Notes: generated from the letters alone by a model not told the origin. A stretch of DNA of 64,000 bases from Thermodesulfovibrionia bacterium (GCA_030694425.1 JAUXYI010000011.1:14301-78300), one strand, 5' to 3'; shown: positions 4,198-58,336, counted from the stretch's first letter. Numbers and translations are program-made.

Positions 4198-4304
4198 CTG
4201 CTCTTTAGAACTGTTTAATAGAAATATGGGATGTGGGGCTTGAATACTCGCTGCTCTTTAGAACTGTTTAATAGAAATATGGGATGTGGAGCCTGTCTAA
4301 AAAG
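4198..4304. repeat. Tandem direct repeat of about 53 bp (two copies) abutting a MITE-like element
   Basis: ctgctctttagaactgtttaatagaaatatgggatgtgg occurs at 4198 and 4251. Confidence 0.8.
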
Positions 4305-4410
4305 TCCTTTTTTTCGTCATTCCTGCGGAAGCAGGAATCCAGAACCTATTGAAATTACTGGATTCCCGTTTTCACGGGAATGACAACTCGTTAGTTTTTA
4401 GACAGGCTCT
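4291..4410. mobile_element. MITE-like palindromic element (GTCATTCC...GGAATGAC family) with outer TIR GCCTGTCTAAAAA
   Basis: Nested inverted repeats gtcattcctgcggaagcaggaatccag / ctggattcccgttttcacgggaatgac flanked by gcctgtctaaaaa / tttttagacaggc. Confidence 0.7.
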
Positions 4411-4844
4411 GTGTCCCTCGAATACTCGTGAAGATTAAAAAAATATTAAAATAAGATTGAAATTTTTTAATCTTCCAAATTTGAAAGGATTCGCAGCTTT
4501 GTGCCCTCTGGTTACCCAGAGTTTACCCTTTCGGAAACATCAAACTTCTTTCATATTCTCTCAAAGAACAATCTAATGATTCTTTATGATAAAGAGAACT
4601 GGCAACTTAATTTGTGACCCATTTCACAAAATTTTATTTTTTTTGATAAATTAATTTTAGTGCATGAATTTATAGTAAGAAAGATTACTATTTCTTTAGT
4701 AAAACTATCTTTTTAAATGCTGTGTCAGTCAATCTGCCACAACATCTTTTTCATGCTAAAATAACAAAACAAATATACAGTGCTTCTATCTTTTTCTATA
4801 TTGCCAATAGAAAACAAAAATGCTAATCTTCTAAGGTATAAGAA

Positions 4845-5579
4845 ATGGGGACAGCAGAAGCAGTCAAAGCAGTACGGAAAAGGATTAATAATGCTGCTGT
4901 TAAAGCAGGCAGGAATCCTGCTGATATAAAGCTTGTCGCAGTAACAAAAAACGTTGAACTGCCGCAAATTATTGAAGCAGTAAAAGCAGGCGTAACGATT
5001 TTAGGGGAAAACAGAGTTCAGGAAGCACAAAAAAAAGTGATGAGTGATGAGTTAAGAGTTACCCGCCCTATTCCCCCCCTTACAAAGGGGGGGATGAAAG
5101 GGGGGGTAGAATGGCATTTAATAGGAAGTCTCCAGAAAAACAAGGCAAAATATGCAGTTCAGTTATTTGACCTCATTCATACCATAGATTCCATTGGACT
5201 TGCAGAGGAAGTAAATAAGCAGGCAGAAAAGGTAGGCAAGATACAGAGAGTTCTTGTACAGGTAAAACTCTCCGAAGAAGAGACAAAACATGGGGCATTA
5301 GAAAAAGACCTGCTCGGGCTGCTTGAAAAAATTTTTAGCATGGGAAATCTTAAACTTGAAGGCCTGATGACAATGCCGCCGTTCTTTGAATCCCCTGAAA
5401 AGACAATACCATATTTTAAGAGATTGAGGGAGATAAAGGATAATATAAATAAGTTACGAGTTACGAGTTACGAGTTACGGGACTTATCAATGGGCATGTC
5501 AAATGACTTTGAAGTTGCAATTGAAGAAGGCGCAACAATGGTGAGGATAGGGACTGCGATATTCGGAGAAAGGAAATAA
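4845..5579 (+). CDS. yggS: YggS-family PLP-binding (PLP homeostasis) protein
   Basis: 244 aa; conserved position upstream of proC-yggT-divIVA; carries two in-frame repeat insertions (C7/G7 palindrome, GTTACGA x4). Confidence 0.8.
   Translation: MGTAEAVKAVRKRINNAAVKAGRNPADIKLVAVTKNVELPQIIEAVKAGVTILGENRVQEAQKKVMSDELRVTRPIPPLTKGGMKGGVEWHLIGSLQKNKAKYAVQLFDLIHTIDSIGLAEEVNKQAEKVGKIQRVLVQVKLSEEETKHGALEKDLLGLLEKIFSMGNLKLEGLMTMPPFFESPEKTIPYFKRLREIKDNINKLRVTSYELRDLSMGMSNDFEVAIEEGATMVRIGTAIFGERK
5063..5107. repeat. C/G-tract palindrome inserted in frame in yggS
   Basis: cccgccctattccccccccttacaaagggggggatgaaaggggggg, encodes RPIPPLTKGGMKGGV. Confidence 0.8.
5453..5480. repeat. Tandem heptamer (GTTACGA)x4 in frame in yggS
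   Basis: gttacgagttacgagttacgagttacgg encodes VTSYELRD. Confidence 0.85.
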
Positions 5580-5619
5580 AAATCTTTATTCGGTTATATT
5601 ATATCAGGGAGATAAAGGT

Positions 5620-6426
5620 ATGATTGGTTTTATCGGCGGTGGGAACATGGCAGAAGCCTTGATAAAGGGAATGATTCAAGATTCATCCCGAATAAGTCGG
5701 GACAAGATTCAAGAAATAATTGTATCAGAGCCAAGAGAAGAACGCAGAAAATATCTTGAACAAACATACGGGGTAAAAACAACTCAGTCAAATAAAGACG
5801 TTGCATCTTCATGCGACATCATAATCCTTGCCATTAAGCCGCAGGATATGGAAGCGGTGCTTGATGAGATTGCAGAGGTTGTAACAGAAAATAAGACAGT
5901 GGTCTCAATAGCTGCCGGTATTACGATGTCTTACCTCACTTCAAAACTTAAGACTAAAAAATTCATCAGGGTTATGCCAAATACACCTGCTATTGTTCAG
6001 GAAGGGATATCTGTTATGTCATTATGTGAGTGCTTTACTGATAAGGATATGGCTACTGTAAGAGAGATATTCATGTCAGTAGGAAAGGTGCTTACCCTGC
6101 CGGAGAAATATATGAATGCAGTTACTGCTTTGTCAGGCAGCGGTCCTGCGTTTATTGCTTTCTTTATAGAAGCAATGATAGACGCAGGGATTAAGATGGG
6201 GTTAAGATTCGCCGAGGCGAATGAACTTGCAATACAAACCCTTATTGGTACAGCAAAACTCATTGAAACAGGTATGCCTCCTGATAAGCTCAGAAAAATG
6301 GTAACATCTCCGGGGGGCACTACAGCAGCAGGGCTTAATGTGTTTGTTCAAAAAGGGTTTAAAGATATTGTTACAGCCGCAATTGAGGCAGCGGTTAATA
6401 GGGCAAATGAACTGGGTAAGTCGTAA
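5620..6426 (+). CDS. proC: Pyrroline-5-carboxylate reductase
   Basis: 268 aa; MIGFIGGGNMAEALIKG Rossmann start, P5CR family. Confidence 0.9.
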   Translation: MIGFIGGGNMAEALIKGMIQDSSRISRDKIQEIIVSEPREERRKYLEQTYGVKTTQSNKDVASSCDIIILAIKPQDMEAVLDEIAEVVTENKTVVSIAAGITMSYLTSKLKTKKFIRVMPNTPAIVQEGISVMSLCECFTDKDMATVREIFMSVGKVLTLPEKYMNAVTALSGSGPAFIAFFIEAMIDAGIKMGLRFAEANELAIQTLIGTAKLIETGMPPDKLRKMVTSPGGTTAAGLNVFVQKGFKDIVTAAIEAAVNRANELGKS

Positions 6427-8593: not shown

Positions 8594-8700
8594 CACCTGC
8601 CATCATTTATGTTAAAGACAGCAGGCATATATCTGGCTATTGAATTTTGAATTTTAAATTTTGAATCTTCTTCTAACTACTGCCAGCCTGGAGCCGAGGA
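8594..8700. repeat. About 110-nt repeated element, copy 1 (hairpin plus TTTTGAATTTT module)
   Basis: Aligns with 9702-9820: (t/c)atgtt(a/t)aagaacagcaggc...atatct...tattgaattttgaat...cttcttctaa...ctgc.agcc. Confidence 0.6.
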
Positions 8701-8778
8701 GTTATTTTATGTAACACAAACAAAGTGGCATTGATTTTTACCATCTGGCATCTTATAATGGTAATAAGGAGGTGTGAT

Positions 8779-9042
8779 ATGGAAACAACGATTGATAAAT
8801 CAGGCAGAGTAGTAATCCCGAAGGAGGTGCGTGATAGCCTCGACCTAAAACCGGGCGAAGCGCTGGAGGTAGAGGAGTTTGATGACAGGGTTATATTAAA
8901 ACCCGTGAGGGAGACCTCCCCCTTACAAGTCAAAGAAGGTTTATTGATTTTCTCCGGCATAGCAACAGGGGATATTGCAGATGCTGTTAAAATCCATCGT
9001 TCAGTGCGTCTGAAAAAATTGGCAACAAAGAAACCAAAATGA
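8779..9042 (+). CDS. vapB: AbrB/MazE-type antitoxin VapB
   Basis: METTIDKSGRVVIPKEVRDSLDLKPGEALEV; RBS aggagg 7 nt upstream of the ATG at 8779; overlaps downstream PIN gene by 4 nt. Confidence 0.7.
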   Translation: METTIDKSGRVVIPKEVRDSLDLKPGEALEVEEFDDRVILKPVRETSPLQVKEGLLIFSGIATGDIADAVKIHRSVRLKKLATKKPK

Positions 9043-9473
9043 GAGTACTATTTGACACCTCTGTTCTTATAGCTGCAATTATTGAACCCCATCCCATGCA
9101 CCCTCATGCTTTTCCATGGCTAAGGAGAGCTAAACTAAATGAATTTGATATGTTTGTAACTACATATACACTGGCTGAGCTTTATGCTGTCTTAACAACT
9201 CTCCCTGTAAAGCCGAGGGTCTCTCCGGGCTTAGCCATACGACTTATACATGACAATGTAGAGACGATTGCAAAGATTATATCCCTTTCATCATCTGACT
9301 ATATCTCTACTATTAAACGGATGTCTGAACTCGGGTTGTCAGGGGGTATTATCTATGATGCCCTTGCTGTAAGGGCTGCTCAGAAATCTGTTATTGATAA
9401 AGTCTTAACATTCAATATTGAGGACTTTAAACGTATATGGCCAGAAGGAACTGAACATATTGCTGTTCCATAG
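9039..9473 (+). CDS. vapC: PIN-domain toxin VapC
   Basis: 144 aa; MRVLFDTSVLIAAI PIN N-terminus. Confidence 0.8.
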   Translation: MRVLFDTSVLIAAIIEPHPMHPHAFPWLRRAKLNEFDMFVTTYTLAELYAVLTTLPVKPRVSPGLAIRLIHDNVETIAKIISLSSSDYISTIKRMSELGLSGGIIYDALAVRAAQKSVIDKVLTFNIEDFKRIWPEGTEHIAVP

Positions 9474-9509
9474 TGTCACGTTTCAGAATTTTTATGTTAT
9501 TGTTTTTCT

Positions 9510-9634
9510 GTCATTTCCGTGAAAACGGGAATCCAGAGCGCTTGAATTTACTGGATTCTCGAAGCGAGTCTCCGCGAAGAGTCGCTCCGACCTGCTGGAG
9601 TTTACCCCGTACTTTGATACGGGGCAGGAATGAC
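9510..9634. mobile_element. MITE-like element (GTCATTTCC...GGAATGAC family)
   Basis: gtcatttccgtgaaaacgggaatccag...ctggattctcgaagcgagtctccgcgaagagtcgctccgac...ccccgtactttgatacggggcaggaatgac; nested hairpins. Confidence 0.7.
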
Positions 9635-9701
9635 AACTTATTTATGGAACACAACACTAGTTTACTGTGGAAATTCTCTTTCTGTAAGGTGTCAATAAAC
9701 A

Positions 9702-9820
9702 AAACGCCTGCTGTCCTCATGTTTAAGAACAGCAGGCGTTATATCTAACTATTTTGAATCCTGAATATCTTAATTTTTGAATTTTCTTCTAATCGCTGCA
9801 AGCCCTGCCAAACCAGAGGC
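9702..9820. repeat. About 110-nt repeated element, copy 2
   Basis: See 8594-8700. Confidence 0.6.
9703..9740 (+). terminator. Strong hairpin (11-bp stem) after vapBC, possible terminator; part of 110-nt repeat copy 2
   Basis: aacgcctgctg - 16-nt loop - cagcaggcgtt, followed by a T-rich run. Confidence 0.4.
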
Positions 9821-9957: not shown

Positions 9958-10236
9958 CTATCCAAATATATTATAGTCGTAAATTTGATTGTGGTGGCCT
10001 ATAAAGCGGAATTCAACCGAATTCTTATCTGTGAACTTGAATACAATTCTGTAGTGAATGTCGATTCTAAAGCTCCAGACATCATGTCCTTTTGGATGGA
10101 GTTTTTCTGTTCTGAGTATGGGATTGAAAGGGTTTCCCCTGAAAAGCTTCGTTTTCTCATCTGCTTTGCTTTGGATTTTTTTAGGAAGGTTAAGGAAAAG
10201 TTCATCAAATGTGGCAGTGGTATAGATTTCTATCAT
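9958..10236 (-). CDS. RelE/ParE-family toxin
   Basis: 92 aa; ...LRTEKLHPKGHDVWSFRIDIHYRIVFKFTDKNSVEFRFIGHHNQIY typical RelE/ParE C-terminal core. Confidence 0.7.
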   Translation of the reverse strand: MIEIYTTATFDELFLNLPKKIQSKADEKTKLFRGNPFNPILRTEKLHPKGHDVWSFRIDIHYRIVFKFTDKNSVEFRFIGHHNQIYDYNIFG

Positions 10237-12287: not shown

Positions 12288-12385
12288 ATCCCCCTTTTAC
12301 AAAGGGGGGAAATTTTCCCCTCTATTAAGAGGGGATAAAGGGGTGTGTTCCCCTCTTTTACAAAGAGGGGTAGGGGAGATTTAAT
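12288..12385. repeat. Cluster of C5/G5 palindromes (CCCCC-TTTTACAAAG-GGGGG family), intergenic
   Basis: cccctccatcccccttttacaaaggggggaaattttcccctctattaagaggggataaaggggtgtgttcccctcttttacaaagaggggtaggggag. Confidence 0.8.
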
Positions 12386-12993: not shown

Positions 12994-13383
12994 ATGAATA
13001 AACAAGAAAAAGTAAATTATTGGATCAAATCAGCGGAGAATGACTGGATAGTCGCAGGTCATCTTTTTGAAAAGGGAGACTATCCATACGCTCTATTTTT
13101 CGGACATTTAACGGTTGAGAAACTTCTAAAAGCTATCTTTGTCAGCAAATTTGATGAGCCTCCGCCATTTACTCACAGGCTTACTTATTTGGCTGAAATA
13201 GCTGGAGTGGAAATATCTAATGAACAATTGGAACTATTGGAAATAATTACAGACTTTAACCTTGAAGCCAGATACCCTGATGAAAAGTTTTCTTTTTATA
13301 AAAAATGTACGAGAGAATTCACAGAAACAAATCTGAAAAAGATTGAGGAGATAAAGGAATGGCTGCTACAACTGTTACAATAG
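12994..13383 (+). CDS. HEPN-domain protein (putative toxin of HEPN/MNT module)
   Basis: 129 aa; HEPN-like helical fold; 25-nt overlap with downstream nucleotidyltransferase. Confidence 0.7.
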   Translation: MNKQEKVNYWIKSAENDWIVAGHLFEKGDYPYALFFGHLTVEKLLKAIFVSKFDEPPPFTHRLTYLAEIAGVEISNEQLELLEIITDFNLEARYPDEKFSFYKKCTREFTETNLKKIEEIKEWLLQLLQ

Positions 13384-13688
13384 ATTCAATAATAAAACTG
13401 GTTAAGAAATATATTCAGGAACTGCAGAAAAACGGAATCACGATTCAAGAGGCTATAATCTTTGGCTCATATGCTAAAGGAATTCCTAAAGAAGAAAGCG
13501 ATATTGACGTCGCTTTGGTATCACCTGCATTTAGCGGCGACAGGTTTGAGGACAGAAGAAAGATAGTTCCTCTTAGAAGAAAAATAGACAACAGGATTGA
13601 ACCGATACCATTCAGACCTGATGATTTTTCAAAAGGTGGAAATCTTGTTGACGAGATTAAAAAAACAGGCCGGAAGATAACCATTTAG
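13359..13688 (+). CDS. Minimal nucleotidyltransferase (MNT, Pol beta superfamily)
   Basis: 109 aa; GSYAKGIPKEESDIDVAL = GS...D.D motif. Confidence 0.8.
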   Translation: MAATTVTIDSIIKLVKKYIQELQKNGITIQEAIIFGSYAKGIPKEESDIDVALVSPAFSGDRFEDRRKIVPLRRKIDNRIEPIPFRPDDFSKGGNLVDEIKKTGRKITI

Positions 13689-14054: not shown

Positions 14055-14771
14055 ATGAACAATATTATAAAAAACTGCACAGGTGTAATTCTTGCCGGCG
14101 GCGAAAATAAACGGATGCCTGTGTTAAAGGCTTTTATCAAGATTAACGGAGAAAAGATTATTGAGCGAAATCTCAAAATCATGAGGCAGCTTTTCAAGGA
14201 GATTTTTATTGTCACCAATCAGCCGGAACTTTACCTGTATCTCAAAACACCTTTGCTCGGCGATGTTTATGATATAAGAGGACCTATGACAGGGATATTT
14301 ACCTCGCTTTTGAATTCATCAAATAACTGGGTTTTTATATCTGCATGTGATATGCCATTTATAAATGGAGAACTTATAAAATATATGGCGTCAAAAAGAG
14401 ACAATTATGATGCAGTAGCGCCAAAATATAATGAAACCCTCATGCTTCAGGATAATGAAAGCAATCCCCCTAAGTCCCCCTTTAGTAAAGGGGGATTGAG
14501 GGGGATTGTTACTAAAGGGGGGAAAGGGGGGGATTATACAGAGCCTCTTTTTGCTATTTATTCAAAGAGGCTTATGTCGTCTATGGAAAAGGCTATTCTT
14601 TCAAATAAAACAGGTATTAAAGACTTTTTAAGTGATAAAAAGGTAAAATATATTCGTACTGAGGAAATAAAAGGCATAGATGCAAAAGCAATGTCTTTTA
14701 TAAACCTGAATACTCTTAAAGACGTGGGGAGGGTTCGAGGATTCAAGTTAGAATGCAAAATTCAAAATTAA
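14055..14771 (+). CDS. mobA: MobA-like nucleotidyltransferase (molybdenum cofactor guanylyltransferase family)
   Basis: VILAGGENKRM...DIRGPMTGIFTSL...ISACDMPFI; contains in-frame C5/G5 palindrome insertion at 14465-14532. Confidence 0.7.
   Translation: MNNIIKNCTGVILAGGENKRMPVLKAFIKINGEKIIERNLKIMRQLFKEIFIVTNQPELYLYLKTPLLGDVYDIRGPMTGIFTSLLNSSNNWVFISACDMPFINGELIKYMASKRDNYDAVAPKYNETLMLQDNESNPPKSPFSKGGLRGIVTKGGKGGDYTEPLFAIYSKRLMSSMEKAILSNKTGIKDFLSDKKVKYIRTEEIKGIDAKAMSFINLNTLKDVGRVRGFKLECKIQN
14465..14532. repeat. C5/G5 palindrome cluster inserted in frame in the mobA-like gene
   Basis: ccccctaagtccccctttagtaaagggggattgagggggattgttactaaaggggggaaaggggggg encodes NPPKSPFSKGGLRGIVTKGGKGG. Confidence 0.8.
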
Positions 14772-17373: not shown

Positions 17374-18054
17374 AGCAGATATTTTTGAAAATTCCTGCCT
17401 GATTAGTTTAGATAGATAAGGGAAGCCTTTTTTCTTTAATGCCTTAAATATTTTTTCTGAGGCAAGACTTTTAAGAAACTCTTGTCTTTTTTTATTGTCT
17501 TTTATTTCTTCCAGTGCCTTTTTGCGTATAACCCTGAGAAAATTTAGATAACGAGTAAATTCGGCGCCATATAGTTTTTCAAGTTCCTTCCTTATTGTTT
17601 TTGAAGTCGCAGGGCTTATTCCATCTGTAGAGATGGCAATTGTTAAAGGACCTCGTTTTACAATAGAAGGTGCAATAAAATTTCCCTCAGATGGTTTATC
17701 AATAACATTTACAAGATGTTTAGCATCCTGTGCAATTCTTTTATTTATCTCATCGGAAGAAGTGCCTGCTATGACAATAAAGGCATCTTTCAGGTCGCCG
17801 GTTTTGTAGTTTCTTTTTATGTGCGTGAGCAGTTTCCTTTTCTTTAGTTTGTCGAGAGTAGTTGTAATATCAGGGGATATTACTCTGACAACTGCGCTTG
17901 CTCTTATGAGGGTAAGCACTTTTCTTTCTGCGACTTTCCCCCCTCCGACAACAACAGCCTTTCTGCCATACAGATTAAGGAATACAGGATAATATTTGAA
18001 GCTCCCTGCAGTCCCGAAGCATCGGGAGAAATGTAAGGAATTTTTCTTTTTCAT
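17365..18054 (-). CDS. Precorrin-2 dehydrogenase / sirohydrochlorin ferrochelatase (CysG N-domain / SirC-Met8 type)
   Basis: FLNLYGRKAVVVGGGKVAERK Rossmann motif; N-terminus uncertain because the first 20 codons include a TCCCGAAGCATCGGGA palindrome module. Confidence 0.7.
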   Translation of the reverse strand: MKKKNSLHFSRCFGTAGSFKYYPVFLNLYGRKAVVVGGGKVAERKVLTLIRASAVVRVISPDITTTLDKLKKRKLLTHIKRNYKTGDLKDAFIVIAGTSSDEINKRIAQDAKHLVNVIDKPSEGNFIAPSIVKRGPLTIAISTDGISPATSKTIRKELEKLYGAEFTRYLNFLRVIRKKALEEIKDNKKRQEFLKSLASEKIFKALKKKGFPYLSKLIRQEFSKISALF

Positions 18055-19064: not shown

Positions 19065-19140
19065 GGGCGGATAGCTCAGTTGGGAGAGCGCAGCCCTTAC
19101 AAGGCTGAGGTCACAGGTTCAATCCCTGTTCCGCCTACCA
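19065..19140 (+). tRNA. tRNA-Val (anticodon TAC)
   Basis: Cloverleaf: acceptor GGGCGGA/TCCGCCT, anticodon arm CAGCC-cuUACaa-GGCTG, T-loop GGTTCAATCC, encoded CCA. Confidence 0.9.
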
Positions 19141-19385
19141 TTAAAAATTAATGAGTTACGGCTGTTAGGCATTGTTCTTTCTCCACAAAATTTACCTGAT
19201 TGTATGCATGCGAGATACCCCTATATATGCGTTTTAATGCCTTACCTAAACTCTAATTAATAGATTATTGATTTCACCTGTTAATCTTGAGGCTAAATGA
19301 CGTATCTGAATTGTTTGTTTCACCTACGTATCAATAGCCTGAGAAGATTTAAAAGTTGATGATTACGGAATAAAACAAACAAAAG

Positions 19386-19912: not shown

Positions 19913-20284
19913 CTATACCGCTATCTCTAAGGCTATCTTGTTATAGTTTATTATCGGTTTTATTTTTCTGTCGGTTGCCTTTGTCTCAATCAATCCTATC
20001 TTCTCTAAATACTTCAAATCATCAGCTACGTTTTTCAGGTCTCTCTTTGCCATACGTGCAAGCTCATTAATGGATTGTGGTTTCTGTGTTTTGATAACGT
20101 GTAACAGTTCAAGTCTTTTGGGAGTCAATGCCTTCCTCAATGCCTCAAAGCTGGTAAAGTAGATTTCAGGCTCTTTGACGGGTTTAAACCGCTTCCCCTG
20201 TTCAATAGCTTCCCCAGTTTTGACAAAATCATTTAGAATTACTTTTAAATCTTTAATGCCTACTTTGATTCTTTTCACTTTCAT
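19913..20284 (-). CDS. Winged-helix DNA-binding protein (HVO_A0114-like), putative antitoxin/regulator
   Basis: 123 aa; LELLHVIKTQKPQSINELARMAKRDLKNVADDLKYLEKIGLIE = wHTH; 4-nt ATGA overlap with upstream gene. Confidence 0.55.
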   Translation of the reverse strand: MKVKRIKVGIKDLKVILNDFVKTGEAIEQGKRFKPVKEPEIYFTSFEALRKALTPKRLELLHVIKTQKPQSINELARMAKRDLKNVADDLKYLEKIGLIETKATDRKIKPIINYNKIALEIAV

Positions 20285-20825: not shown

Positions 20826-20874
20826 AGCCCTTACAAGGCTGAGGTCACAGGTTCAATCCCTGTTCCGCCTACCA
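20826..20874 (+). repeat. Duplicate of tRNA-Val 3' half (attR-like)
   Basis: agcccttacaaggctgaggtcacaggttcaatccctgttccgcctacca identical to 19092-19140. Confidence 0.85.
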
Positions 20875-22667: not shown

Positions 22668-22733
22668 GTCATACCGCACTTGATGCGGTATCCAGTCTTT
22701 ATTTTTCTGGATTCCTGCTTCCGCAGGAATGAC
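22668..22733. mobile_element. MITE-like element (GTCATACC...GGAATGAC)
   Basis: gtcataccgcacttgatgcggtatccag...ctggattcctgcttccgcaggaatgac. Confidence 0.7.
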
Positions 22734-31430: not shown

Positions 31431-31464
31431 GTGAACATGAGGCATTCGAGAAATACTCTTTTTT

Positions 31465-31526
31465 GTCACCCTGAGCGAAGTGAAGGGTCTTACAACATCA
31501 TGATTTTATGAGATTCTTCACTTCGT
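31465..31526. mobile_element. MITE-like element (GTCACCCTGAGCGAAGTGAAGGGTCT ... AGATTCTTCACTTCGTTCAGAATGAC)
   Basis: Imperfect 26-nt inverted arms; related to the copy at 44769-44838. Confidence 0.7.
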
Positions 31527-31610
31527 TCAGAATGACATTTTTTTGCATTATTGCTATTTCTCGAAAGTCTCAACCTCTCACCTTAAAGTTTAATCCTATA
31601 GCGCTAAGTT

Positions 31611-44768: not shown

Positions 44769-44838
44769 TGTCATTCTGAGCGAAGCGAAGAATCTTAGCT
44801 TTCTTGGAATTGAGACCCTTCACTTTGTTCAGGGTGAC
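44769..44838. mobile_element. MITE-like element fused to the 3' end of thiE
   Basis: gtcattctgagcgaagcgaagaatct...agacccttcactttgttcagggtgac; supplies the thiE tail ...HPEQSEGSQFQES*. Confidence 0.7.
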
Positions 44839-45472: not shown

Positions 45473-45554
45473 GTTGTTGCAAATTGTAGGGGCGGGGTGA
45501 CCCCGCCCTTACACCAGATACACGTTACTTGTTACTCGTCACTTGTTACTGTCT

Positions 45555-46795: not shown

Positions 46796-46870
46796 GTCAT
46801 TCCTGCGAAAGCAGGAATCCAGGAAAACCAAAGAAAATACTGGATTCCCGCTTAAGGACTGCGGGAATGA
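46796..46870. mobile_element. MITE-like element (GTCATTCCTGCGAAAGCAGGAATCCAG ... CTGGATTCCCGCTTAAGGACTGCGGGAATGAC)
   Basis: Between thiH-like and thiS. Confidence 0.7.
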
Positions 46871-48303: not shown

Positions 48304-48478
48304 TCCTCCGCCGGCATTATCCGGGTCAGGTTCAAGGGGTCTCCTATCTTCAGAACTAAGATTTCAGAACACAGATATCAGACTTTTTTGTTCTGTTTTC
48401 TGCGCTCTGGGTTCTGTGCTCTGATATTAGGACTCTCAGGCTTTGTCCCGTAATTACTTACGTGACGTTGCCTCCCCC
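48304..48478 (-). ncRNA. TPP riboswitch (thi-box) aptamer, interrupted by an inserted palindromic element of about 90 nt
   Basis: Minus strand shows GGGGGAGGC...GCCUGAGAG...(insert)...ACCCCUUGAACCUGACCCGGAUAAUGCCGGCGGAGG, matching the conserved CUGAGA, ACCC and GAACCUGAUCxGGxUAAUxCCxGCGxAGG elements. Confidence 0.7.
48355..48440. repeat. CAGAACACAGA-type palindromic element (copy inside the riboswitch)
   Basis: cagaacacagatatcagac...ggttctgtgctctgatattagg; related copy at 51297-51372. Confidence 0.7.
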
Positions 48479-49653: not shown

Positions 49654-49697
49654 ATAAATGAGGCTTTTGCAAAAGTATGTTTTATCACGTTCAGGTT

Positions 49698-49786
49698 GTC
49701 ATTCCTGCGAAAGCAGGAATCCATAAGTTGTTGATTTTACACAAACTGGATTCCCGATAATCCCGAAGTATCGGGACGGGAATGAC
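49698..49786. mobile_element. MITE-like element (GTCATTCCTGCGAAAGCAGGAATCCA ... TCCCGAAGTATCGGGA ... GGGAATGAC)
   Basis: Upstream of guaB. Confidence 0.7.
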
Positions 49787-49821
49787 ATTTTTGGATTTTT
49801 GCAAGAGGCTCAGTATAATAA

Positions 49822-51372
<1,551 letters not shown>

Positions 51373-51401
51373 TGTTCTGTGCTCTGTCTTCTGATATATT
51401 T

Positions 51402-52997
51402 ATGCATGAAGAAAAAATTTTAGTCCTTGATTTTGGCTCCCAGTACACCCAGCTTATCGCAAGGCGCGTGAGGGAAAGCAAGGTCTATTCCGAAATATTC
51501 CCTTATAATGTTTCTTTTGATAAAATTATATCCTTTTCCCCTAAAGGAATAATCCTTTCAGGAGGACCTTCAAGCGTGTATGATAAAAATGCCCCTCTGC
51601 CTGACAAAAGAATTTTTGAACTCGGAATCCCGGTTTTGGGAATATGCTACGGCATGCAGCTTATGGCATATTGTATTGGCGGAAAGGTTGCAAAAGCAGC
51701 AAAAAGAGAATACGGACGCGCCGAACTGATTATTGATGACGACTCAGATTTATTGAAAGGAATCAAGTCAGAAGTCAGAAGTCAGAAGTCAGAAGTCAGG
51801 GGACTCGTCACTCGTCACTCGTCACTCGTCACTGTCGTATGGATGAGCCACGGCGACAGGATTGAAGAATATCCCAGGGGTTTCAAACCAATTGCACACA
51901 CAGATAATTCTCCGGTTGCAGCAATGGCTGATAAAAACAGGAGGTTTTATGCCCTGCAGTTTCATCCTGAAGTTGTACATACTGAGCATGGCTCAGAAAT
52001 CTTAAGAAATTTTATATTTGACATATGTAAATGCAAGCCCGAATGGACAATGAAATCATTTATAGAAACAACTGTAGAAGAGATAAAAAACAGGGTTAAG
52101 AATGATAAGGTTGTATGTGCAATAAGCGGCGGGGTTGATTCAGCAGTTACAGCAGTGTTGATGCACAGGGCAATTAAAAAACAGCTTATATGCATCTTTG
52201 TAGATAACGGCGTCCTGAGGACGGGGGAAGCAAAGAAGGTTGAAAATACACTAAAAAAACATTTTCATATGAATATAGTTTGTGTTGACGCATCAAAAAG
52301 ATTTTTAAAAAAACTAAAAGGCGTCACTGACCCTGAAAAAAAGAGAAAAATCATTGGCAATGAATTTATAAGGATTTTTGAAGAACAGGCAAAAAAAATT
52401 AAAGGGGTTAAATATCTTGCACAGGGGACATTATATCCTGATGTCATTGAAAGCACGTCATTTAAAGGTCCTTCAGCCACCATAAAAAGCCATCATAATG
52501 TAGGCGGTCTTTTAAAGGATATGAAGCTTCGGCTTATTGAACCTCTGAGGGAACTTTTTAAAGATGAAGTGAGAATTCTGGGCAGGGAGCTTGGGATGCC
52601 AGAAGAGGTTCTCAACCGGCATCCATTCCCCGGTCCGGGGCTTGCAATAAGGATTATTGGCGAGGTCACAGAACAGAGATGTGGTATCTTACGAAAAGCA
52701 GATGCCATTGTCCTTGAAGAGATTAAAAAATCAGGCCTTTATAATGAACTCTGGCAGGCATTTGCAGTCTTACTGCCTATAAAAACAGTAGGTGTCATGG
52801 GTGATGAGAGGACATATGAAAACGTTGTGGCTTTAAGGGCGGTAAAAAGCGTTGATGGAATGACTGCGGACTGGGCAAGGATTCCTTATGATATTCTTGG
52901 CAATATTTCAAACAGGATAATTAATGAGGTAAAAGGCGTTAACAGGGTTGTATTTGATATAAGCTCAAAGCCGCCAAGCACAATTGAGTGGGAGTAA
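51402..52997 (+). CDS. guaA: GMP synthase (glutamine-hydrolysing)
   Basis: GATase-1 (GICYGMQ), ATP-PPase SGGVDS, C-terminal dimerisation domain; start at [12 protein letters not shown]; carries a 68-nt heptamer insertion in the inter-domain linker. Confidence 0.95.
51766..51833. repeat. Tandem heptamers (AGTCAGA)x4-5 then (CTCGTCA)x4, in frame in guaA
   Basis: Encodes [24 protein letters not shown] between the GATase and ATP-PPase domains. Confidence 0.85.
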
Positions 52998-54884: not shown

Positions 54885-55955
54885 TTATTCCTTGATTTTC
54901 AAAAACATATAATACCCTGCTGTACCGAAGAGAAAAGGGCTAATCCACGGGGCAAATGAAGGAGGTATAATTCCTGTGTTTCCAAGTGACAGGCTCATTG
55001 AAAAAATCACCCAGTAAGCAATAATCACCATGAGCCCTAAGCCTGCTGACCTCATACCCCCTCCGTGCTTCATATTTAATGCAAGCGCTACCCCGAAAAC
55101 AATCATTACAAAATTAACCGTAGGATAGGCAAGCTTACCATAGAGGTCTACGATATATTTAAGATTTCTAAAACCTGCGTTCTCAAGTCTCTTGTAATAA
55201 ACATAGAGTTCATAAAAATTCATCTCTTCTGGTTTTTGCATCTCTTCCCTGAATATCTTTGGTTCCTCCAGCGCAGTAAAAGCAAGTGTTTTAAACTTTG
55301 TTGTATTGTTGTTATCAAAATCAAAAACAGAGGCATTTTTAAGCATCCAGCTTCCGTTAATCCATTCTGCCTCGTCTGCTTCTATTCTTTTTGCCAGTTT
55401 AAAAGATGGGTTAAAGCTAAAAATGCTTATTTTCAAAACCCTGTCTTTATCTTCCACAAAATCTTTGATACGGATTAGGCTTCCATCAAGCCCTTTGACC
55501 CAGAGCGCCCCTTCCCTGTAAGTAATCTTAGGCGACTTTTTAAAAATCTTTGTAGTTCTTATCCAAGAAGCCTTTCTTGTTGATAGAGGAGCCAGAGTTT
55601 CTCCAAGGATTAAAGCGAGCATACTGATTGCAATCCCCATTATGAGAAAGGATGAGAAAAGTTTTTTCAGGCTTCCGCCGGCTGCCTTTATTGCCACTGT
55701 TTCCTTCCATTTTGATGCTATCCCAACAGTAAAAAGTATAGAAAGCAAAGAGGCAACGGGCGACACCAATAACAATGATTTAGGCGTCTGAAGTAAAAGG
55801 TACTGGAAAATTAAATAACTCGAAACCCTTTGAGCGTAAAATTCCTCCATCTTATCAAAAAATTCAGCAACCAATAAGATTGCTGTTGCGCTTAACAGGA
55901 TGATGATATAGTATTTGAAAAATTCTTTTAGAAAATACTTTAATAGGATTCTCAT
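54885..55955 (-). CDS. lptG: LPS export permease LptG (YjgP/YjgQ family)
   Basis: 356 aa; 6 TM plus periplasmic beta-jellyroll; paired with upstream LptF-like gene. Confidence 0.75.
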   Translation of the reverse strand: MRILLKYFLKEFFKYYIIILLSATAILLVAEFFDKMEEFYAQRVSSYLIFQYLLLQTPKSLLLVSPVASLLSILFTVGIASKWKETVAIKAAGGSLKKLFSSFLIMGIAISMLALILGETLAPLSTRKASWIRTTKIFKKSPKITYREGALWVKGLDGSLIRIKDFVEDKDRVLKISIFSFNPSFKLAKRIEADEAEWINGSWMLKNASVFDFDNNNTTKFKTLAFTALEEPKIFREEMQKPEEMNFYELYVYYKRLENAGFRNLKYIVDLYGKLAYPTVNFVMIVFGVALALNMKHGGGMRSAGLGLMVIIAYWVIFSMSLSLGNTGIIPPSFAPWISPFLFGTAGYYMFLKIKE

Positions 55956-55960
55956 AACTT

Positions 55961-57052
55961 TTAACTTTTAACTTTTAACTTTCTTTTTAAAATAGGCTTG
56001 TCCCTATAAGTCAGATAGAAAAATAATACAGCTACTGCGCCAAAAATTATATTTGGCGCCCACCCTCCCAAAAAAGGAGGTATTTTTTTTGCCTTTACAA
56101 GTCCTTCTCCCAAAATCAGTAGGACATAGTAAGATATAAGCACAGATAAACTAAAAGAAAAACTCCCGAGACGGCCTGTTTTCCCAACCCTTGTAGCAAG
56201 CGCAGGACCAAGAAAGCCGAATATAAGGCATGCAAATGGGATAGCCAACCGCCGGTTTAATTCTACCATCCACAGTATGCTGCTGTTTCGCCTGTTCCAG
56301 AGTTCAACAATCCCTATTTCACTCGGCTTTAACTCTCTTTCTGTCTGCGGAACTGATGTCAGCACAAAATCGTATTCGGAAAAAGCGGCCTCAGATGAAC
56401 TTTTTCCTCCAAATGTATGTATCATTCCATTACGCATGCTCAGGTTTACAACCCCTTCTTCAGGGTTTGAACTGATTGCGCCTTCTTCCGCAACTATTAC
56501 TATGGGTTCTTTGGTATCACCCTCTTTATAAATAAAAATTCCCTTAAACCTGTCTCCTGTCTGCATTTCTTTAACAAAAACAACCGTCCCTTTGAAAACC
56601 GTAGAAAAGGTTTCCTCTTCAATAACCATGGCAGTCTTTTTTGCGATTGTCTCATAAACTGTCTTTTTAAAAGAATGCACACTCTTGGGCAGCAGGTAAA
56701 TACTGATAAAAGACAGGATTAAAAAACCCGCTGCTGAGAATATTATTGCTGGCTTTGATACGGACCAGAAGCTCATGCCGCTTCCCTTTAAGACAATCAC
56801 TTCATTGTCTGTTGTCATCCTTCCATATGTGAGAAATACTGCAATAAGAATTGCCATGGGTATTGCAAGAAGAAGAATAGAGGGCTGAAGAAATAAAAAT
56901 ACCTTAACAATATCTATAAGTTCTACGCCCCTACCCAAAATAAGCCGCGTGAGCCTTACAAACTTCTCCATAAAAAGCACAAATGACAGAAATGAAATTA
57001 CAATTAAAAAATTTATGAAGAGCTCTTTAAATATTGCTCTGTGTATTATCAT
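55961..57052 (-). CDS. lptF: LPS export permease LptF (YjgP/YjgQ family)
   Basis: 363 aa; same architecture. Confidence 0.75.
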   Translation of the reverse strand: MIIHRAIFKELFINFLIVISFLSFVLFMEKFVRLTRLILGRGVELIDIVKVFLFLQPSILLLAIPMAILIAVFLTYGRMTTDNEVIVLKGSGMSFWSVSKPAIIFSAAGFLILSFISIYLLPKSVHSFKKTVYETIAKKTAMVIEEETFSTVFKGTVVFVKEMQTGDRFKGIFIYKEGDTKEPIVIVAEEGAISSNPEEGVVNLSMRNGMIHTFGGKSSSEAAFSEYDFVLTSVPQTERELKPSEIGIVELWNRRNSSILWMVELNRRLAIPFACLIFGFLGPALATRVGKTGRLGSFSFSLSVLISYYVLLILGEGLVKAKKIPPFLGGWAPNIIFGAVAVLFFYLTYRDKPILKRKLKVKS

Positions 57053-57821
57053 GTTCCCACCACATAACAGCTGCCTTTCTTAAACCAAAAGGTGCAATTA
57101 AGGTATTATTTTGTCCTGAAGCAATTAATTTTTTCTTCAGGAAACGAACAAGCGCCTTTTCTTTTTCGGCTGTAAGTTTTTTCTCCAACCTGTGCCGCCA
57201 GAAATCCATGGCATCATTAAAATCTTCAAAAGGCTGGTCAAGATAAAAATCAAATACCCTTACATTTGCAAAAATTCCATGCTGACACAAAAAATTATAT
57301 GTTTTTACAAAACCACCTTCATATACATATTTTTTTTTAAATAAGATTGGGTAAAGTTTCTTATAATAAAATCTATCCCATTCACCTGCACCCTGTAAAT
57401 AGACTATAAACTTTTTGGATATATTTGAAATATATTTAAGAAAATTTACATTGCAAACTATGCTTTCAGGAAGATTTGCACATATAACCATATCGTGAGG
57501 CCTTAATTTTGAATGAAGATTTCCCCGAAACCTGTTTCCTTCCCAGCCTGTATTACAGGCTCTGATATTTTTAATGCCTGACTCCTTTGCCCTTTTTAAG
57601 AGAAGTTCATACATCCATCTCGAAGGCTCAACAGCGGTAATGTCTTTGACTAAGCTGGAAGCTGGAATTGACAATGCGCCGCAGCCTGCGCCAACATCAA
57701 TAACGCTTTCACATTTTTTTAATAACGGGGCAAGAACAGCAATTGCTTTTTGAGGATAATTGCTCTGCTCAATAGCCCTGCAGTACCAAAAAGACCTTTT
57801 TTTATCCCATTTTGTTGCCAT
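57027..57821 (-). CDS. Class I SAM-dependent methyltransferase
   Basis: VIDVGAGCGALS motif I. Confidence 0.7.
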   Translation of the reverse strand: MATKWDKKRSFWYCRAIEQSNYPQKAIAVLAPLLKKCESVIDVGAGCGALSIPASSLVKDITAVEPSRWMYELLLKRAKESGIKNIRACNTGWEGNRFRGNLHSKLRPHDMVICANLPESIVCNVNFLKYISNISKKFIVYLQGAGEWDRFYYKKLYPILFKKKYVYEGGFVKTYNFLCQHGIFANVRVFDFYLDQPFEDFNDAMDFWRHRLEKKLTAEKEKALVRFLKKKLIASGQNNTLIAPFGLRKAAVMWWEHDNTQSNI

Positions 57822-57844
57822 TAAATATATATTCCCTGAAATAG

Positions 57845-58020
57845 AGATAGGGAAGGCAGTCTCATCCCGATGCTTCGGGATATAATCGACAGATTATTTA
57901 TATTCTGTTTTAGCCTTTTAGTTTCAATGTCTTCTGTTAAATCCATAAAGTTCTTTTTTATAAGGTGTCGTATAGTCCCGAAGCATCGGGATTCACCAGC
58001 CTTCCCTATCTATTTTGTCA
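57845..58020. mobile_element. Composite palindromic element: outer IR ATAGGGAAGGC / GCCTTCCCTAT enclosing two TCCCGA(A/T)GC(A/T)TCGGGA modules
   Basis: 57847-57879 vs 57976-58019 are inverted copies. Confidence 0.65.
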
Positions 58021-58227
58021 GTTTTACTGCATTTCTCAGTTCTATCTCTATTTTCTCTATTTTTCGGATATTATAACAGCTATGCAGATTAAAAAGGTAG
58101 ACGTTTTGACCAAAAAAACATTGACACTTGTTAAATAATGTGATAAAATATTTTACAGTTAGCTTTAAGACATAAAGGGGGAGAAGCAAGGGTTTCAACG
58201 CCATACAGCCTGTTGAAAAAGTATTTT

Positions 58228-58336
58228 TGCCGTCTTTGCGAGCGAAGCGAAGCAATCTCGCAGTTAAAGAAATCAACGAGTTAAAGATTGCTTCGTCCCG
58301 ATAAATCGGGATGTTTCGGGACTCCTCGCAATGACA
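58228..58336. mobile_element. MITE-like element (GCGAGCGAAGCGAAGCAATCT...AGATTGCTTCG; TCCCGATAAATCGGGA; ...CTCCTCGCAATGAC)
   Basis: Same modules as 36550-36626. Confidence 0.65.

What the first reader, a model, noticed from the sequence alone, without database searches (positions are those of the whole stretch)
4291..58336. Modular MITE-like palindromic element family, at least 10 copies in 64 kb, some fused to coding sequence
Elements bounded by GTCAYYCC...GGAATGAC occur at 4291, 9510, 22668, 31465, 36550, 44769, 46796, 49698, 57845 and 58228. They are built from interchangeable hairpin modules:
- GTCATTCCTGCGGAAGCAGGAATCCAG
- the perfect palindrome TCCCGAAGCATCGGGA
- GTCACCCTGAGCGAAGTGAAGGGTCT

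Copy 44769 supplies the last 17 codons and stop of thiE. A TCCCGAAGCATCGGGA module sits in the 5' end of the sirC-like ORF. Copy 4291 has an outer TIR and sits beside a 53-bp tandem duplication. The density and modularity suggest an active or recently active non-autonomous element, or a structured RNA family (for example REP/BIME-like mRNA stabilisers).
Basis: seen in the sequence. Interest (0 to 1): 0.6.

Follow-up and report, generated by a model that had tools for sequence, protein, structure and literature searches.

The report
Ssn-type hairpin repeats, gene-less pairs
The repeats are real and belong to a recently described, very widespread class of DNA hairpins that a small GIY-YIG nuclease (Ssn) cuts as single-stranded DNA; here they occur as gene-less inverted pairs that look like stripped-down copies of a tiny "hairpin–nuclease gene–hairpin" cassette, and they come and go between closely related strains.

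Summary
The window, from a Thermodesulfovibrionia (Nitrospirota) MAG, carries 9 inverted pairs (18 units) of "GTCA + hairpin" modules. The tenth "copy" (57845) is a different MITE.

There are two unit types:
- Type I, GTCATTCC-stem-GNRA-stem-GGAATCCAG, is almost identical to the Neisseria NTS / Ssn-related motif (SRM) of Chenal et al. 2025.
- Type II is GTCAYYCT-GAGCGAAGCGA-AGRRTC.

The exact type I 27-mer occurs in at least 120 genome stretches from over a dozen phyla. In other genomes both types bracket a 96-aa GIY-YIG ssn gene as SRM(+)–ssn–SRM(−). I also found an internally deleted cassette and ORF-less pairs built like those in the window. So the window elements are best read as non-autonomous, MITE-like derivatives of Ssn cassettes.

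Relatives at 95–97% identity lack the two pairs that could be compared, or carry something different at those sites. No ssn, RAYT, IS200/IS605 or other transposase gene lies in the 64 kb. Whether this genome encodes Ssn could not be tested.

The proposed partner is wrong, and the RNA idea is unsupported.

Verdict: a new member, with a variant motif, of a known kind. Moderate interest.

The parts
4289..4409 (.). Composite element 1. Outer inverted repeat GAGCCTGTCTAAAAA (4289-4303 / 4395-4409) encloses a type I SRM (Ssn-related motif) pair. TGTG flanks both sides.
4316..4342 (+). Type I SRM unit GTCATTCCTGCGGAAGCAGGAATCCAG
   Evidence: (45.7 bits, E 3e-12)
4358..4384 (-). Type I SRM unit GTCATTCCCGTGAAAACGGGAATCCAG. 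It also matches the published strict SRM pattern.
   Evidence: 46.1 bits
4198..4428 (+). 53-bp direct duplication. Copy A (4198-4250) is intact. Copy B (4251-4288 plus 4410-4428) is split by element 1, so copy A acts as a paralogous 'empty site'.
9510..9536 (+). Type I SRM unit. It matches the strict SRM pattern.
   Evidence: 42.2 bits
9551..9634 (-). Partner arm of pair 2. The type I ends (GTCATTCC...GAATCCAG) are kept, with about 55 nt of extra nested hairpins inside the stem-loop.
22668..22695 (+). Type I variant GTCATACCGCACTTGATGCGGTATCCAG
   Evidence: 16.6 bits, E 0.0095
22707..22733 (-). Type I SRM unit. It lies 13 nt from the rplS stop codon.
31438..31572 (.). Composite element 4. Outer inverted repeat TGAGGCATTCGAGAAATA / TATTTCTCGAAAGTCTCA encloses a type II pair.
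31465..31489 (+). Type II unit GTCACCCTGAGCGAAGTGAAGGGTC
   Evidence: 41.6 bits
31512..31536 (-). Type II unit GTCATTCTGAACGAAGTGAAGAATC
   Evidence: 44.2 bits
36550..36574 (+). Type II unit, in the rnfC–rnfD spacer
   Evidence: 42.6 bits
36582..36626 (-). Long type II arm GTCATTGCGAGGAG[TCCCGATGCTTCGGGA]CGACGTGGCAATC. The TCCCGA hairpin forms the apical part.
44770..44794 (+). Type II unit, between thiE and thiC
   Evidence: 45.4 bits
44814..44838 (-). Type II unit. It is read through by the called thiE ORF (…LCHPEQSEGSQFQES*).
46796..46822 (+). Type I unit GTCATTCCTGCGAAAGCAGGAATCCAG. It differs from the Neisseria NTS core by one compensatory base pair.
   Evidence: 48.1 bits; PMC11893778
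46840..46871 (-). Type I unit with a 9-nt loop, in the thiH–thiS spacer
   Evidence: 33.9 bits
49659..49812 (.). Composite element 8. Outer inverted repeat TGAGGCTTTTGCAAAA / TTTTGCAAGAGGCTCA encloses a type I pair. It is absent from L002, and L003 has a different palindrome at the same site.
49698..49724 (+). Type I unit
   Evidence: 39.2 bits
49746..49786 (-). Type I unit with a TCCCGAAGTATCGGGA hairpin (49761-49776) nested in its loop
58206..58360 (.). Composite element 9. Outer inverted repeat CAGCCTGTTGAAAAA encloses a type II pair. CATA flanks both sides.
58232..58257 (+). Degenerate type II unit (GTCT instead of GTCA, one bulged A)
   Evidence: 14.5 bits, E 0.36
58285..58335 (-). Long type II arm GTCATTGCGAGGAG…TCCCGATTTATCGGGA…CGAAGCAATC
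18012..18027 (+). Solitary TCCCGAAGCATCGGGA hairpin in the 5' end of the annotated sirC-like ORF
58477..58492 (+). Solitary TCCCGAATGGTCGGGA hairpin nested in a CCCTG…CAGGG stem
57834..58063 (.). Terminal repeats are CCCTGAAATAGAGA / TCTCTATTTTTCGG, with a 5-bp ATATT duplication and two TCCCGA hairpins inside. L002 has a clean empty site.
   Evidence: (I3)

Best explanation
The elements are Ssn-related hairpin repeats (SRM, the class that includes the Neisseria NTS/dRS3).

**Unit and pair architecture (shown)**
- Each unit is a conserved 5' GTCA, a stem whose sequence may change as long as it pairs, a small loop, and a conserved 3' tail. The loop is GNRA in type I and a GCGAAGC-type mini-hairpin with tandem G·A pairs in type II. 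The tail is ATCCAG in type I and ATCT(C) in type II.
- In the window the units sit as head-to-head inverted pairs 11–30 nt apart.
- This is the same architecture as the two ends of a compact cassette, SRM(+)–ssn–SRM(−) of about 376 bp, found in other bacteria. The 96-aa ssn gene encodes a GIY-YIG single-strand-specific DNA endonuclease.
- The window pairs therefore look like cassettes that have lost the gene, the way MITEs derive from insertion sequences.

**Likely working (inferred here; shown for homologues in PMC11893778)**
- When DNA is single-stranded (replication, uptake, repair), each unit folds into a hairpin.
- Ssn recognises the GTCA flank plus the stem and nicks beside it.

**Consequences (inferred)**
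- The nicks, or recombination between the many copies, let pairs be gained, lost and nested in one another and in other palindromes.
- This gives the strain-to-strain differences and the occasional fusion to gene ends.
- Four pairs sit inside a second, outer pair of inverted repeats. That outer layer may be a separate MITE that carries them.
For: **1. Identity with the published motif**
- Type I units differ from the published NTS CGTCATTCCCGCGMAVGCGGGAATCYRG only by compensatory stem changes. Two units match the published degenerate SRM pattern (0.05 expected).

**2. Hairpin constraint**
- Among 40 distinct type I 27-mers from many phyla, 7 of 8 stem pairs show double (compensatory) changes, while GTCA, C24 and G27 are invariant.
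- Type II shows double changes at 4 of 7 pairs, including the apical G-C to A-T pair.

**3. Partner gene**
- The same ends bracket an Ssn-family GIY-YIG ORF in L080, L110, L246, L248 and L272.
- Type II motifs directly abut Ssn-family ORFs in L142, L148, L128 and L207.
- L247 holds an internally deleted ssn between an SRM pair.
- In L080 the spacer of ORF-less pairs equals the two immediate flanks of the ORF.

**4. Generality of the pair architecture**
- There are 97 convergent pairs in the 120 genome loci. Most have spacers of 7–99 nt.

**5. Spread**
- The exact 27-mer is in at least 120 genome stretches from Nitrospirota, Chloroflexota, Thermodesulfobacteriota, Rickettsia, Xanthomonadales, Planctomycetota and others.
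- The type II 25-mer is in at least 120 metagenome stretches.

**6. Turnover**
- No complete SRM unit was found in the L002/L003/L004 sequence scanned, about 18 kb of which overlaps the window.
- The surA–guaB and thiS–thiH sites differ in all three strains.
- Short-read contigs break at the repeats.

**7. Structure**
- Eight of the 9 cores, and composite element 1, fold as ssDNA with z-scores of −3.8 to −7. The 44.8-kb type II core scores only −1.6.
Against: - No ssn gene lies in the 64-kb window or in the 31 kb of relatives' sequence. Whether this genome encodes Ssn could not be checked.
- Only 2 of 18 units satisfy the published strict SRM pattern, and type II is outside it.
- Nobody has shown that Ssn moves or copies SRMs. 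Target-site duplications are seen for only 2 of 4 composite copies (TGTG, CATA) and none for the bare pairs. The mobilisation step is therefore inference.
- The sequences in the covariation alignment were selected for at least 7 of 8 pairs, which inflates the percentage paired.
- The outer inverted repeats may belong to a different, transposase-driven MITE. If so, the SRM pairs would be passengers in those 4 copies.
Confidence: 0.72

Rival explanations
1. These are classical MITEs of a DDE-type insertion sequence. A transposase encoded elsewhere recognises the outer inverted repeats (GAGSCNKTYNARAAA). The GTCA-hairpin pairs are only internal cargo or structure.
For: - Four copies have 15–18-bp outer inverted repeats.
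- Two of these are flanked by 4-bp direct repeats (TGTG, CATA).
- One interrupts a copy of a 53-bp duplication.
- The unrelated MITE at 57834-58063 shows that transposase-type insertion does happen in this genome.
Against: - Five of 9 pairs have no such outer repeat.
- The same outer repeat class encloses both type I and type II pairs.
- The inner pairs occur without these outer repeats across many phyla and bracket ssn genes there.
- No matching IS or transposase is in the window.
Confidence: 0.15
2. This is a REP/BIME-like system. The palindromes would be mobilised by a RAYT or an IS200/IS605 Y1 transposase and act mainly as mRNA stabilisers or terminators.
For: - They are hairpin repeats in inverted pairs in intergenic and operon spacers, superficially like BIMEs.
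- One copy (49698-49786, after surA) is followed by a T-rich run.
Against: - The gene found between these ends is GIY-YIG, not Y1.
- No Y1_Tnp or OrfB-type domain is in the window ORFs scanned.
- There is no Rfam family hit.
- In 7 of the 8 copies that lie downstream of a gene (copies 2–8), the hairpins are followed by A-runs or a ribosome-binding site rather than T-runs in the direction of transcription.
Confidence: 0.05
3. They are host-domesticated recognition sites with no current mobility. The hairpins would be kept because they mark DNA for Ssn cleavage of incoming single strands (control of transformation or recombination, as proposed for Neisseria). The differences between strains would come only from deletion and recombination.
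For: - PMC11893778 shows that SsnA limits integration of NTS-bearing ssDNA.
- The closest homologues of the L080 Ssn sit inside type I restriction–modification operons.
- The strain differences seen here are replacements at fixed sites rather than clean insertions.
Against: - The series of cassette, internally deleted cassette and ORF-less pair, together with tandem arrays, looks like a selfish element decaying and multiplying.
- The identical 27-mer in more than a dozen phyla needs horizontal spread.
- Fusion to gene ends (thiE) is hard to see as selected.
Confidence: 0.08

Closest known systems
NTS / Ssn-related motifs (SRM) with the SsnA GIY-YIG ssDNA endonuclease (Chenal et al., Nat Commun 2025, PMC11893778)
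   Same: - The same 5' (C/T)GTCA, 8-bp stem, GNRA-type loop and ATCCAG tail. Window unit 46796 differs from the NTS core by one compensatory base pair.
- The same NTS–ssn–NTS gene architecture is seen in the homologous loci I retrieved.
- It has the same very wide phylogenetic spread.
   Different: - The host is Nitrospirota (Thermodesulfovibrionia).
- Half of the units are a second motif (GAGCGAAGCGA core) outside the published SRM pattern, yet also next to Ssn-family genes.
- Units occur as tight ORF-less inverted pairs. These are often nested in a further inverted repeat or carry a nested TCCCGA hairpin.
- No ssn gene is in the window.
Neisseria dRS3 repeats / neisserial intergenic mosaic elements (NIMEs)
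   Same: The ATTCCC-N8-GGGAAT palindrome core is the stem of type I units (ATTCC[C/T]…[G/A]GGAAT). Both are multi-copy and intergenic.
   Different: - dRS3 is defined without the oriented GTCA/ATCCAG flanks.
- NIMEs are arrays of RS segments between dRS3 copies, not tight inverted pairs.
- This comparison rests on the description in PMC11893778 and on my own knowledge. It was not tested on Neisseria sequence.
Rickettsia palindromic elements (RPE; Ogata et al. 2000)
   Same: - They are palindromic repeats that can sit in-frame in protein-coding genes.
- The Rickettsia loci retrieved carry the identical 27-mer in inverted pairs, inside longer lineage-specific inverted repeats such as GGCGTTGTTGCATGG.
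   Different: - That those Rickettsia composites are the RPEs of the literature is from memory and was not verified. No RPE consensus was available in the papers held.
- The outer repeats differ completely from those here.
REP/BIME elements with RAYT (IS200/IS605-like Y1 transposase)
   Same: - Both are short hairpin repeats with a conserved 5' tetranucleotide and often occur in inverted pairs.
- In both, the gene of the acting enzyme is flanked by the repeats, and recognition is of ssDNA hairpins.
   Different: The enzyme family is GIY-YIG nuclease rather than HUH/Y1 transposase, and the tetranucleotide is GTCA rather than GTAG. No RAYT was found.
Bacterial MITEs (e.g. Correia, Nezha)
   Same: They are small and non-coding with inverted ends shared with a gene-bearing relative. 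They show presence/absence polymorphism, nested copies and occasional fusion to ORFs.
   Different: - No transposase is known for the bare pairs, and they show no consistent target-site duplication.
- The ends are themselves hairpins rather than simple terminal inverted repeats.

Membership tests
SRM/NTS hairpin repeats (Ssn system) | Oriented motif: 5' HGTCW, a hairpin stem, a short loop, and a 3' RNCYNB tail (NTS: CGTCATTCCCGCGMAVGCGGGAATCYRG) | tested here: met
   - All 10 type I arms have GTCA, and 9 have ATCCAG (one ATCCAT).
- Nine of the 10 score E ≤ 0.055 with a model built from 40 cross-phylum units. The tenth is the long 9551-9634 arm, which the model misses.
- The core differs from the NTS only by compensatory pairs.
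SRM/NTS hairpin repeats (Ssn system) | Match to the published degenerate search pattern HGTCWYN(0-2)YYVSBRHN(0-5)WNVSBRGN(0-2)RNCYNB | tested here: inconclusive
   - Only 2 of 18 units match (4358-4385, 9509-9536), against a shuffle mean of 0.05.
- The T:A stem variants and all type II units fall outside the pattern.
SRM/NTS hairpin repeats (Ssn system) | Copy number far above chance | tested here: met
   0 of 100 shuffles reach the observed counts. There are 18 units in 64 kb.
SRM/NTS hairpin repeats (Ssn system) | The repeats flank an ssn (cd10448-type GIY-YIG) gene on both sides | tested here: met
   - This was met in other genomes carrying the same motifs. Type I: L080, L110, L246, L248, L272. 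Type II: L142, L148, L128, L207.
- The proteins carry PF01541.
- Assignment to CDD family cd10448 itself was not run.
SRM/NTS hairpin repeats (Ssn system) | The host genome itself encodes an Ssn homologue | not testable with these tools
   - No Ssn-profile hit was found in the window or L001–L004 (best E about 2).
- The other 40 kb of the contig and the rest of the MAG could not be reached.
SRM/NTS hairpin repeats (Ssn system) | Ssn binds and cuts the repeat as ssDNA, not dsDNA or RNA | not testable with these tools
   Biochemistry exists only in PMC11893778, for Neisseria and Wolbachia homologues.
MITE (non-autonomous transposable element) | Small and non-coding, with inverted ends shared with an autonomous, gene-bearing element | tested here: met
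   - The cores are 66–126 bp with no ORF.
- The ends are identical in type to those of SRM–ssn–SRM cassettes.
- An internally deleted intermediate occurs in L247.
MITE (non-autonomous transposable element) | Target-site duplication of fixed length | tested here: inconclusive
   Two of 4 composite copies have 4-bp flanking repeats (TGTG at 4285/4410, CATA at 58202/58361). There are none at the other composites or the bare pairs.
MITE (non-autonomous transposable element) | Insertion polymorphism between related genomes | tested here: met
   - The pair at 49698 is absent from L002 and L003.
- The pair at 46796 is replaced by a different SRM end in L002 and is absent in L003.
- No R1 or R2 hit was found in L002–L004.
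REP/BIME–RAYT | A Y1 (HUH) transposase gene flanked by the repeats | tested here: not met
   - The gene between the repeats is GIY-YIG in every case found.
- No Y1-type domain was seen in 30 window ORFs scanned or in the Pfam labels.
Known structured RNA family | Match to an Rfam covariance model | tested here: not met
   Only two tRNAs reach the gathering score in the window.

The most novel reading that the evidence does not exclude
SRM(+)–ssn–SRM(−) would be a minimal autonomous mobile element of a new kind: about 376 bp, with a single 96-aa GIY-YIG nuclease that acts on ssDNA hairpins.

The window's ORF-less pairs would be its MITEs. They would be copied into single-stranded hairpin loops of other palindromes, which would explain the nested structures and the fixed 'hot' sites that carry different palindromes in different strains. 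Occasionally they would be copied into gene ends.

Type II units would define a second specificity class with its own Ssn clade.
Probability: 0.3. Interest if true: 0.75.

Novelty: new member of a known kind. Interest (0 to 1): 0.42.

Why it matters
The 2025 Ssn paper left two questions open: how the hairpin repeats multiply, and whether NTS–ssn–NTS is a mobile element.

This window and the loci gathered around it supply a graded series:
- the full cassette;
- an internally deleted cassette;
- ORF-less pairs and tandem arrays;
- strain-level gain, loss or replacement.

That series is the classic signature of an autonomous element and its MITEs, so the question becomes directly testable.

The data also point to a second, unlisted motif class (GAGCGAAGCGA core) tied to Ssn-family genes. 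That widens the set of candidate ssDNA-cutting specificities.

On the practical side, these repeats break short-read assemblies. They also generate spurious or extended ORFs (thiE tail, sirC head, and ORFs 9473-9748 and 58010-58381) in MAG annotation.

Tried and rejected
- **Published SRM pattern.** It found only 2 units, so I used covariance models built from cross-phylum units instead.
- **Generic "GTCA + any 5-bp stem" scan.** It gave 102 mostly random hits and was dropped.
- **Search for an Ssn gene in the window.** A GIY-YIG regex and an Ssn-profile search found nothing.
- **Ssn protein search.** It returned more than 8000 clusters but lists only 120, none named Thermodesulfovibrionia. 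Lineage-level presence of ssn therefore stayed open.
- **Literature.**
  - The Ssn paper has no supplementary files held.
  - A 2026 preprint that mentions SsnA is not held.
  - No RPE consensus was found in the text of the papers held, so the RPE link stays a recollection.
- **Terminator idea.** I checked by eye the sequence after each pair in the direction of the upstream gene. Only the surA copy has a T-run.
- **Target-site duplications.** I looked at all composite copies. Two of four have them, so this is unresolved.
- **"Window-only or artefact" scenario.** Rejected: an independent contig is identical, and the motifs are found in genome, metagenome and viral collections.

Full report
**Source and observation**

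The window comes from a 104-kb contig of a Thermodesulfovibrionia (Nitrospirota) MAG. Its proteins are MDP3296317, MDP3296329 and MDP3296339 in NCBI. It is about 38–40% G+C.

- GTCAYYCC occurs 17 times against 3.7 expected.
- The 27-mer GTCATTCCTGCGGAAGCAGGAATCCAG occurs 4 times against 0.
- The GTCACCCTGAGCGAAGTGAAGGGTCT module occurs twice against 0.
- TCCCGA-N4-TCGGGA occurs 7 times against 0.04.

Reading the loci and searching with two covariance models gives 9 inverted pairs, 18 units. They start at 4316, 9510, 22668, 31465, 36550, 44770, 46796, 49698 and 58232.

It is a 230-bp MITE (57834-58063) with its own terminal repeats and a 5-bp ATATT duplication. A relative shows a clean empty site.

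**Anatomy**

Every unit starts with GTCA followed by a hairpin.
- Type I (10 units) is GTCA-TTCCNGC-GNRA-GCNGGAA-TCCAG.
- Type II (8 units) is GTCA-YYCT-GAGCGAAGCGA-AGRR-TCT(C). This is a 5-bp basal stem, two G·A mismatches and a GCGAAGC-type apical mini-hairpin.
- In the long type II arms (36582-36626, 58285-58335) the apical part is a TCCCGA-N4-TCGGGA hairpin. The same design occurs in unrelated metagenome contigs, for example GTCATTCTGAG-TCCCGATGTAATCGGGA-CGAAGAATC.

Units always come as a (+) unit and a (−) unit facing each other across 11–30 nt.

Four pairs (at 4.3, 31.4, 49.7 and 58.2 kb) lie inside a further 15–18-bp inverted repeat of the form GAGSC…AAAA. Some arms carry extra hairpins nested in their loops (9551-9634, 49746-49786).

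As single-stranded DNA, 8 of the 9 cores and composite element 1 fold with z-scores of −3.8 to −7. The 44.8-kb type II core scores only −1.6, and type II hairpins are poorly modelled.

**What they are**

A full-text search for the sequences led to Chenal et al. 2025 (PMC11893778). That paper defines two things:
- the Neisseria Transformation Sequence CGTCATTCCCGCGMAVGCGGGAATCYRG;
- a wider class of Ssn-related motifs (SRM).

It shows that SsnA binds the hairpin and cuts beside it in single-stranded DNA only. SsnA is a roughly 100-aa GIY-YIG protein of family cd10448. The gene is typically flanked by the repeats (NTS–ssnA–NTS).

Window unit 46796 (GTCATTCCTGCGAAAGCAGGAATCCAG) differs from the NTS core by one compensatory pair (C:G to T:A). 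Two units match even the strict published pattern. The others fail that pattern only because of such compensatory changes.

**Distribution**

- The hosts include Nitrospirae/Nitrospirota MAGs (at least 10), Dehalococcoidia, Thermodesulfobacteriota, Rickettsia, Xanthomonadales, Planctomycetota, Omnitrophota, Patescibacteria and Elusimicrobia.
- The type II 25-mer occurs in at least 120 metagenome stretches.
- The type I motif occurs in 102 IMG/VR stretches.
- In the genome loci, 97 convergent pairs were found. Most have 7–99-nt spacers, so the pair architecture is general.

**Partner gene**

- An Ssn-like profile finds GIY-YIG ORFs in the motif-selected loci. Where the exact ends were checked, they sit precisely between a (+) and a (−) unit.
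- Type I examples are L080, L110, L246, L248 and L272. Examples are SRM 1150-1176, ssn 1192-1482, SRM 1499-1525 in L246, and 1862-1888 / 1903-2193 / 2210-2236 in L248.
- The family is very large: more than 8000 clusters, all PF01541.
- Type II motifs directly abut Ssn-family ORFs in L142, L148, L128 and L207, whose reading frames even run into the motif (…DSSLRSE*). So both unit types of the window belong to Ssn-linked repeats, although type II is not covered by the published pattern.
- L247 contains a pair whose 123-nt spacer keeps the first codons (…KQPSIYL…) and the last codons of ssn. It is an internally deleted cassette.
- In L080 the 21-nt spacer of the ORF-less pairs equals the two immediate flanks of the ORF. 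Such pairs form tandem arrays around the gene.
- The window spacers share the TTGAA(T)TA-CTGG junction with these.

This series of full cassette, deleted cassette and bare pair is the evidence that the window elements are gene-less derivatives.

**Hairpin constraint**

- Forty distinct type I 27-mers keep GTCA, C24 and G27 invariant, while 7 of 8 stem pairs show changes on both sides. Pairing collapses to 20–48% when partners are slid.
- Type II shows double changes at 4 of 7 pairs, including the apical G-C to A-T pair.
- Caveat: I selected sequences with at least 7 of 8 pairs. The percentage paired is therefore inflated, but the existence of many compensated variants is not.

**Turnover**

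Two syntenic contigs from relatives at 95–97% identity were compared: L002 (11.1 kb) and L003 (10.2 kb).
- The surA–guaB element (49659-49812) is missing from L002. L003 has an unrelated palindrome at exactly the same point.
- In the thiS–thiH spacer, the window pair is replaced by a different SRM end in L002, and there are no hairpins in L003.
- Neither model finds a complete unit in L002–L004.
- Short-read contigs start or end in the repeats, and one end reveals another copy about 3.2 kb beyond the window.
- An independent contig from the same sample reproduces window 49691-51794 at 100%. That range covers the SRM pair and right outer repeat of the 49.7-kb copy. This excludes an assembly artefact.

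**Context in the window**

- The pairs lie in operon spacers: rplS–rnhB, rnfC–rnfD, thiE–thiC, thiH–thiS, surA–guaB and upstream of glmM.
- They also lie after a PIN toxin gene and in two divergent regions.
- The called thiE ORF ends inside unit 44814-44838. Its Pfam domain stops at residue 195 of 225.
- The solitary hairpin at 18012 lies in an indel-variable N-terminal stretch of the sirC-like ORF.
- ORFs 9473-9748 and 58010-58381 have no Pfam match and run across elements, so they are probably spurious.
- No ssn, RAYT, IS200/IS605 or other transposase domain was found in 30 scanned ORFs or in the precomputed Pfam labels.

**Mechanism**

- Shown elsewhere (PMC11893778): Ssn recognises the GTCA flank and the stem in ssDNA and nicks nearby.
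- Shown here: these units have that recognition architecture, bracket ssn in other genomes, exist as decayed cassettes, and turn over between strains.
- Inferred: this organism has an Ssn; nicking or recombination at the hairpins drives copying, loss and nesting.

**Rivals**

- A DDE-type MITE defined by the outer repeats is plausible for the four composite copies. Two of these have 4-bp flanking repeats.
- REP/RAYT is rejected on the partner gene.
- Fixed host sites without mobility is weakened by the decay series and the cross-phylum identity.

**Limits**

- I could not reach the rest of the MAG, so the presence of ssn in this genome is untested.
- cd10448 assignment was not run.
- The link to Rickettsia palindromic elements rests on memory plus the Rickettsia loci.
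- Ssn-driven mobility has never been demonstrated.

**Verdict**

This is a real repeat family and a new (Nitrospirota) member of the known Ssn/SRM kind. It carries a variant second motif and a clear MITE-like relation to a minimal nuclease cassette.

Noticed in passing
window 1953-1983, 2011-2042, 5452-5479, 8640-8666, 27790-27820, 33609-33673, 45519-45550, 51765-51836, 55955-55982 and others: There are at least 15 tandem arrays of 7-nt units (AATGCAA, TTTTGAT, AGTTACG, ACTCGTC, AAGTCAG, TCGTCTA, TAACTTT…). Several lie in-frame inside genes (yggS, bioA, thiE, guaA), giving peptide inserts such as [22 protein letters not shown].
   Followed up: partly
window 51739-51831 (inside guaA); L002 4753-4794; L003 5272-5327: The same position inside guaA carries three different inserts in three strains at 95–97% identity. 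The window has (AAGTCAG)5(ACTCGTC)4, L002 has (GGGTCAG)2, and L003 has a CCCCCTTTACTAAAGGGGGG palindrome. GuaA is 541, 524 and 533 aa respectively. This is a coding-sequence hot spot for small repeats.
   Followed up: partly
window 5074-5092, 12291-12309, 14476-14494, ~21847-21882: A family of C5/G5 palindromes (CCCCCTTTACAAAGGGGG). Two copies are translated inside the YggS and MobA-like ORFs (…PIPPLTKGGMKGG…, …PPKSPFSKGGLRGIVTKGGKGG…).
   Followed up: no
window 57834-58063: An independent 230-bp MITE. Terminal repeats are CCCTGAAATAGAGA / TCTCTATTTTTCGG, with a 5-bp ATATT duplication and internal 41-nt inverted arms ending in TCCCGA hairpins. It is absent from L002, which shows the empty site.
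   Followed up: partly
window 19092-19142 and 20826-20876: An exact 51-nt copy of the 3' half of tRNA-Val lies 1.7 kb downstream of the gene, next to tRNA-Asp. The two copies bracket a TumE toxin gene and an HVO_A0114/MarR-like gene. This looks like a small integrated island with att-type repeats (D13, 9, 82).
   Followed up: no
L246 1150-1525, L247 1553-2190, L248 1862-2236: The three closest homologues of the L080 Ssn looked up all sit as SRM–ssn–SRM cassettes immediately downstream of hsdS, inside type I restriction–modification operons. This could be an insertion preference or a functional link to defence.
   Followed up: partly
L058 5221-6038 and L080 4680-6233 (Thermodesulfobacteriota OZ245366.1): A tandem array of ORF-less SRM pairs with a period of about 113 bp lies on both sides of an ssn gene, with 9–11 exact 27-mers per 8 kb.
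   Followed up: partly
window 58449 / L004 8794: A contig from the same sample (L004) is 99.98% identical to window 58449-64000. It then continues into an epimerase gene instead of the element-rich 57.8–58.4-kb region. This is either a strain-level rearrangement or an assembly junction at the repeats.
   Followed up: no
window 48343-48431 and 51322-51393: Palindromic elements built from TTCAGAAC/ACAGAAC… and GTTCTGT… 14-mers. The first is shared with L002 but is replaced in L003 by a TCCCGATGTATCGGGA hairpin at the same point.
   Followed up: no
window 114-374, 3519-4100, 8725-9473, 9958-10236, 12994-13688, 19913-20571: Toxin–antitoxin-type genes are unusually dense: Phd, PIN, MazE+PIN, RelE/YoeB-like, HEPN+nucleotidyltransferase, TumE. 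Two SRM pairs lie next to them.
   Followed up: no
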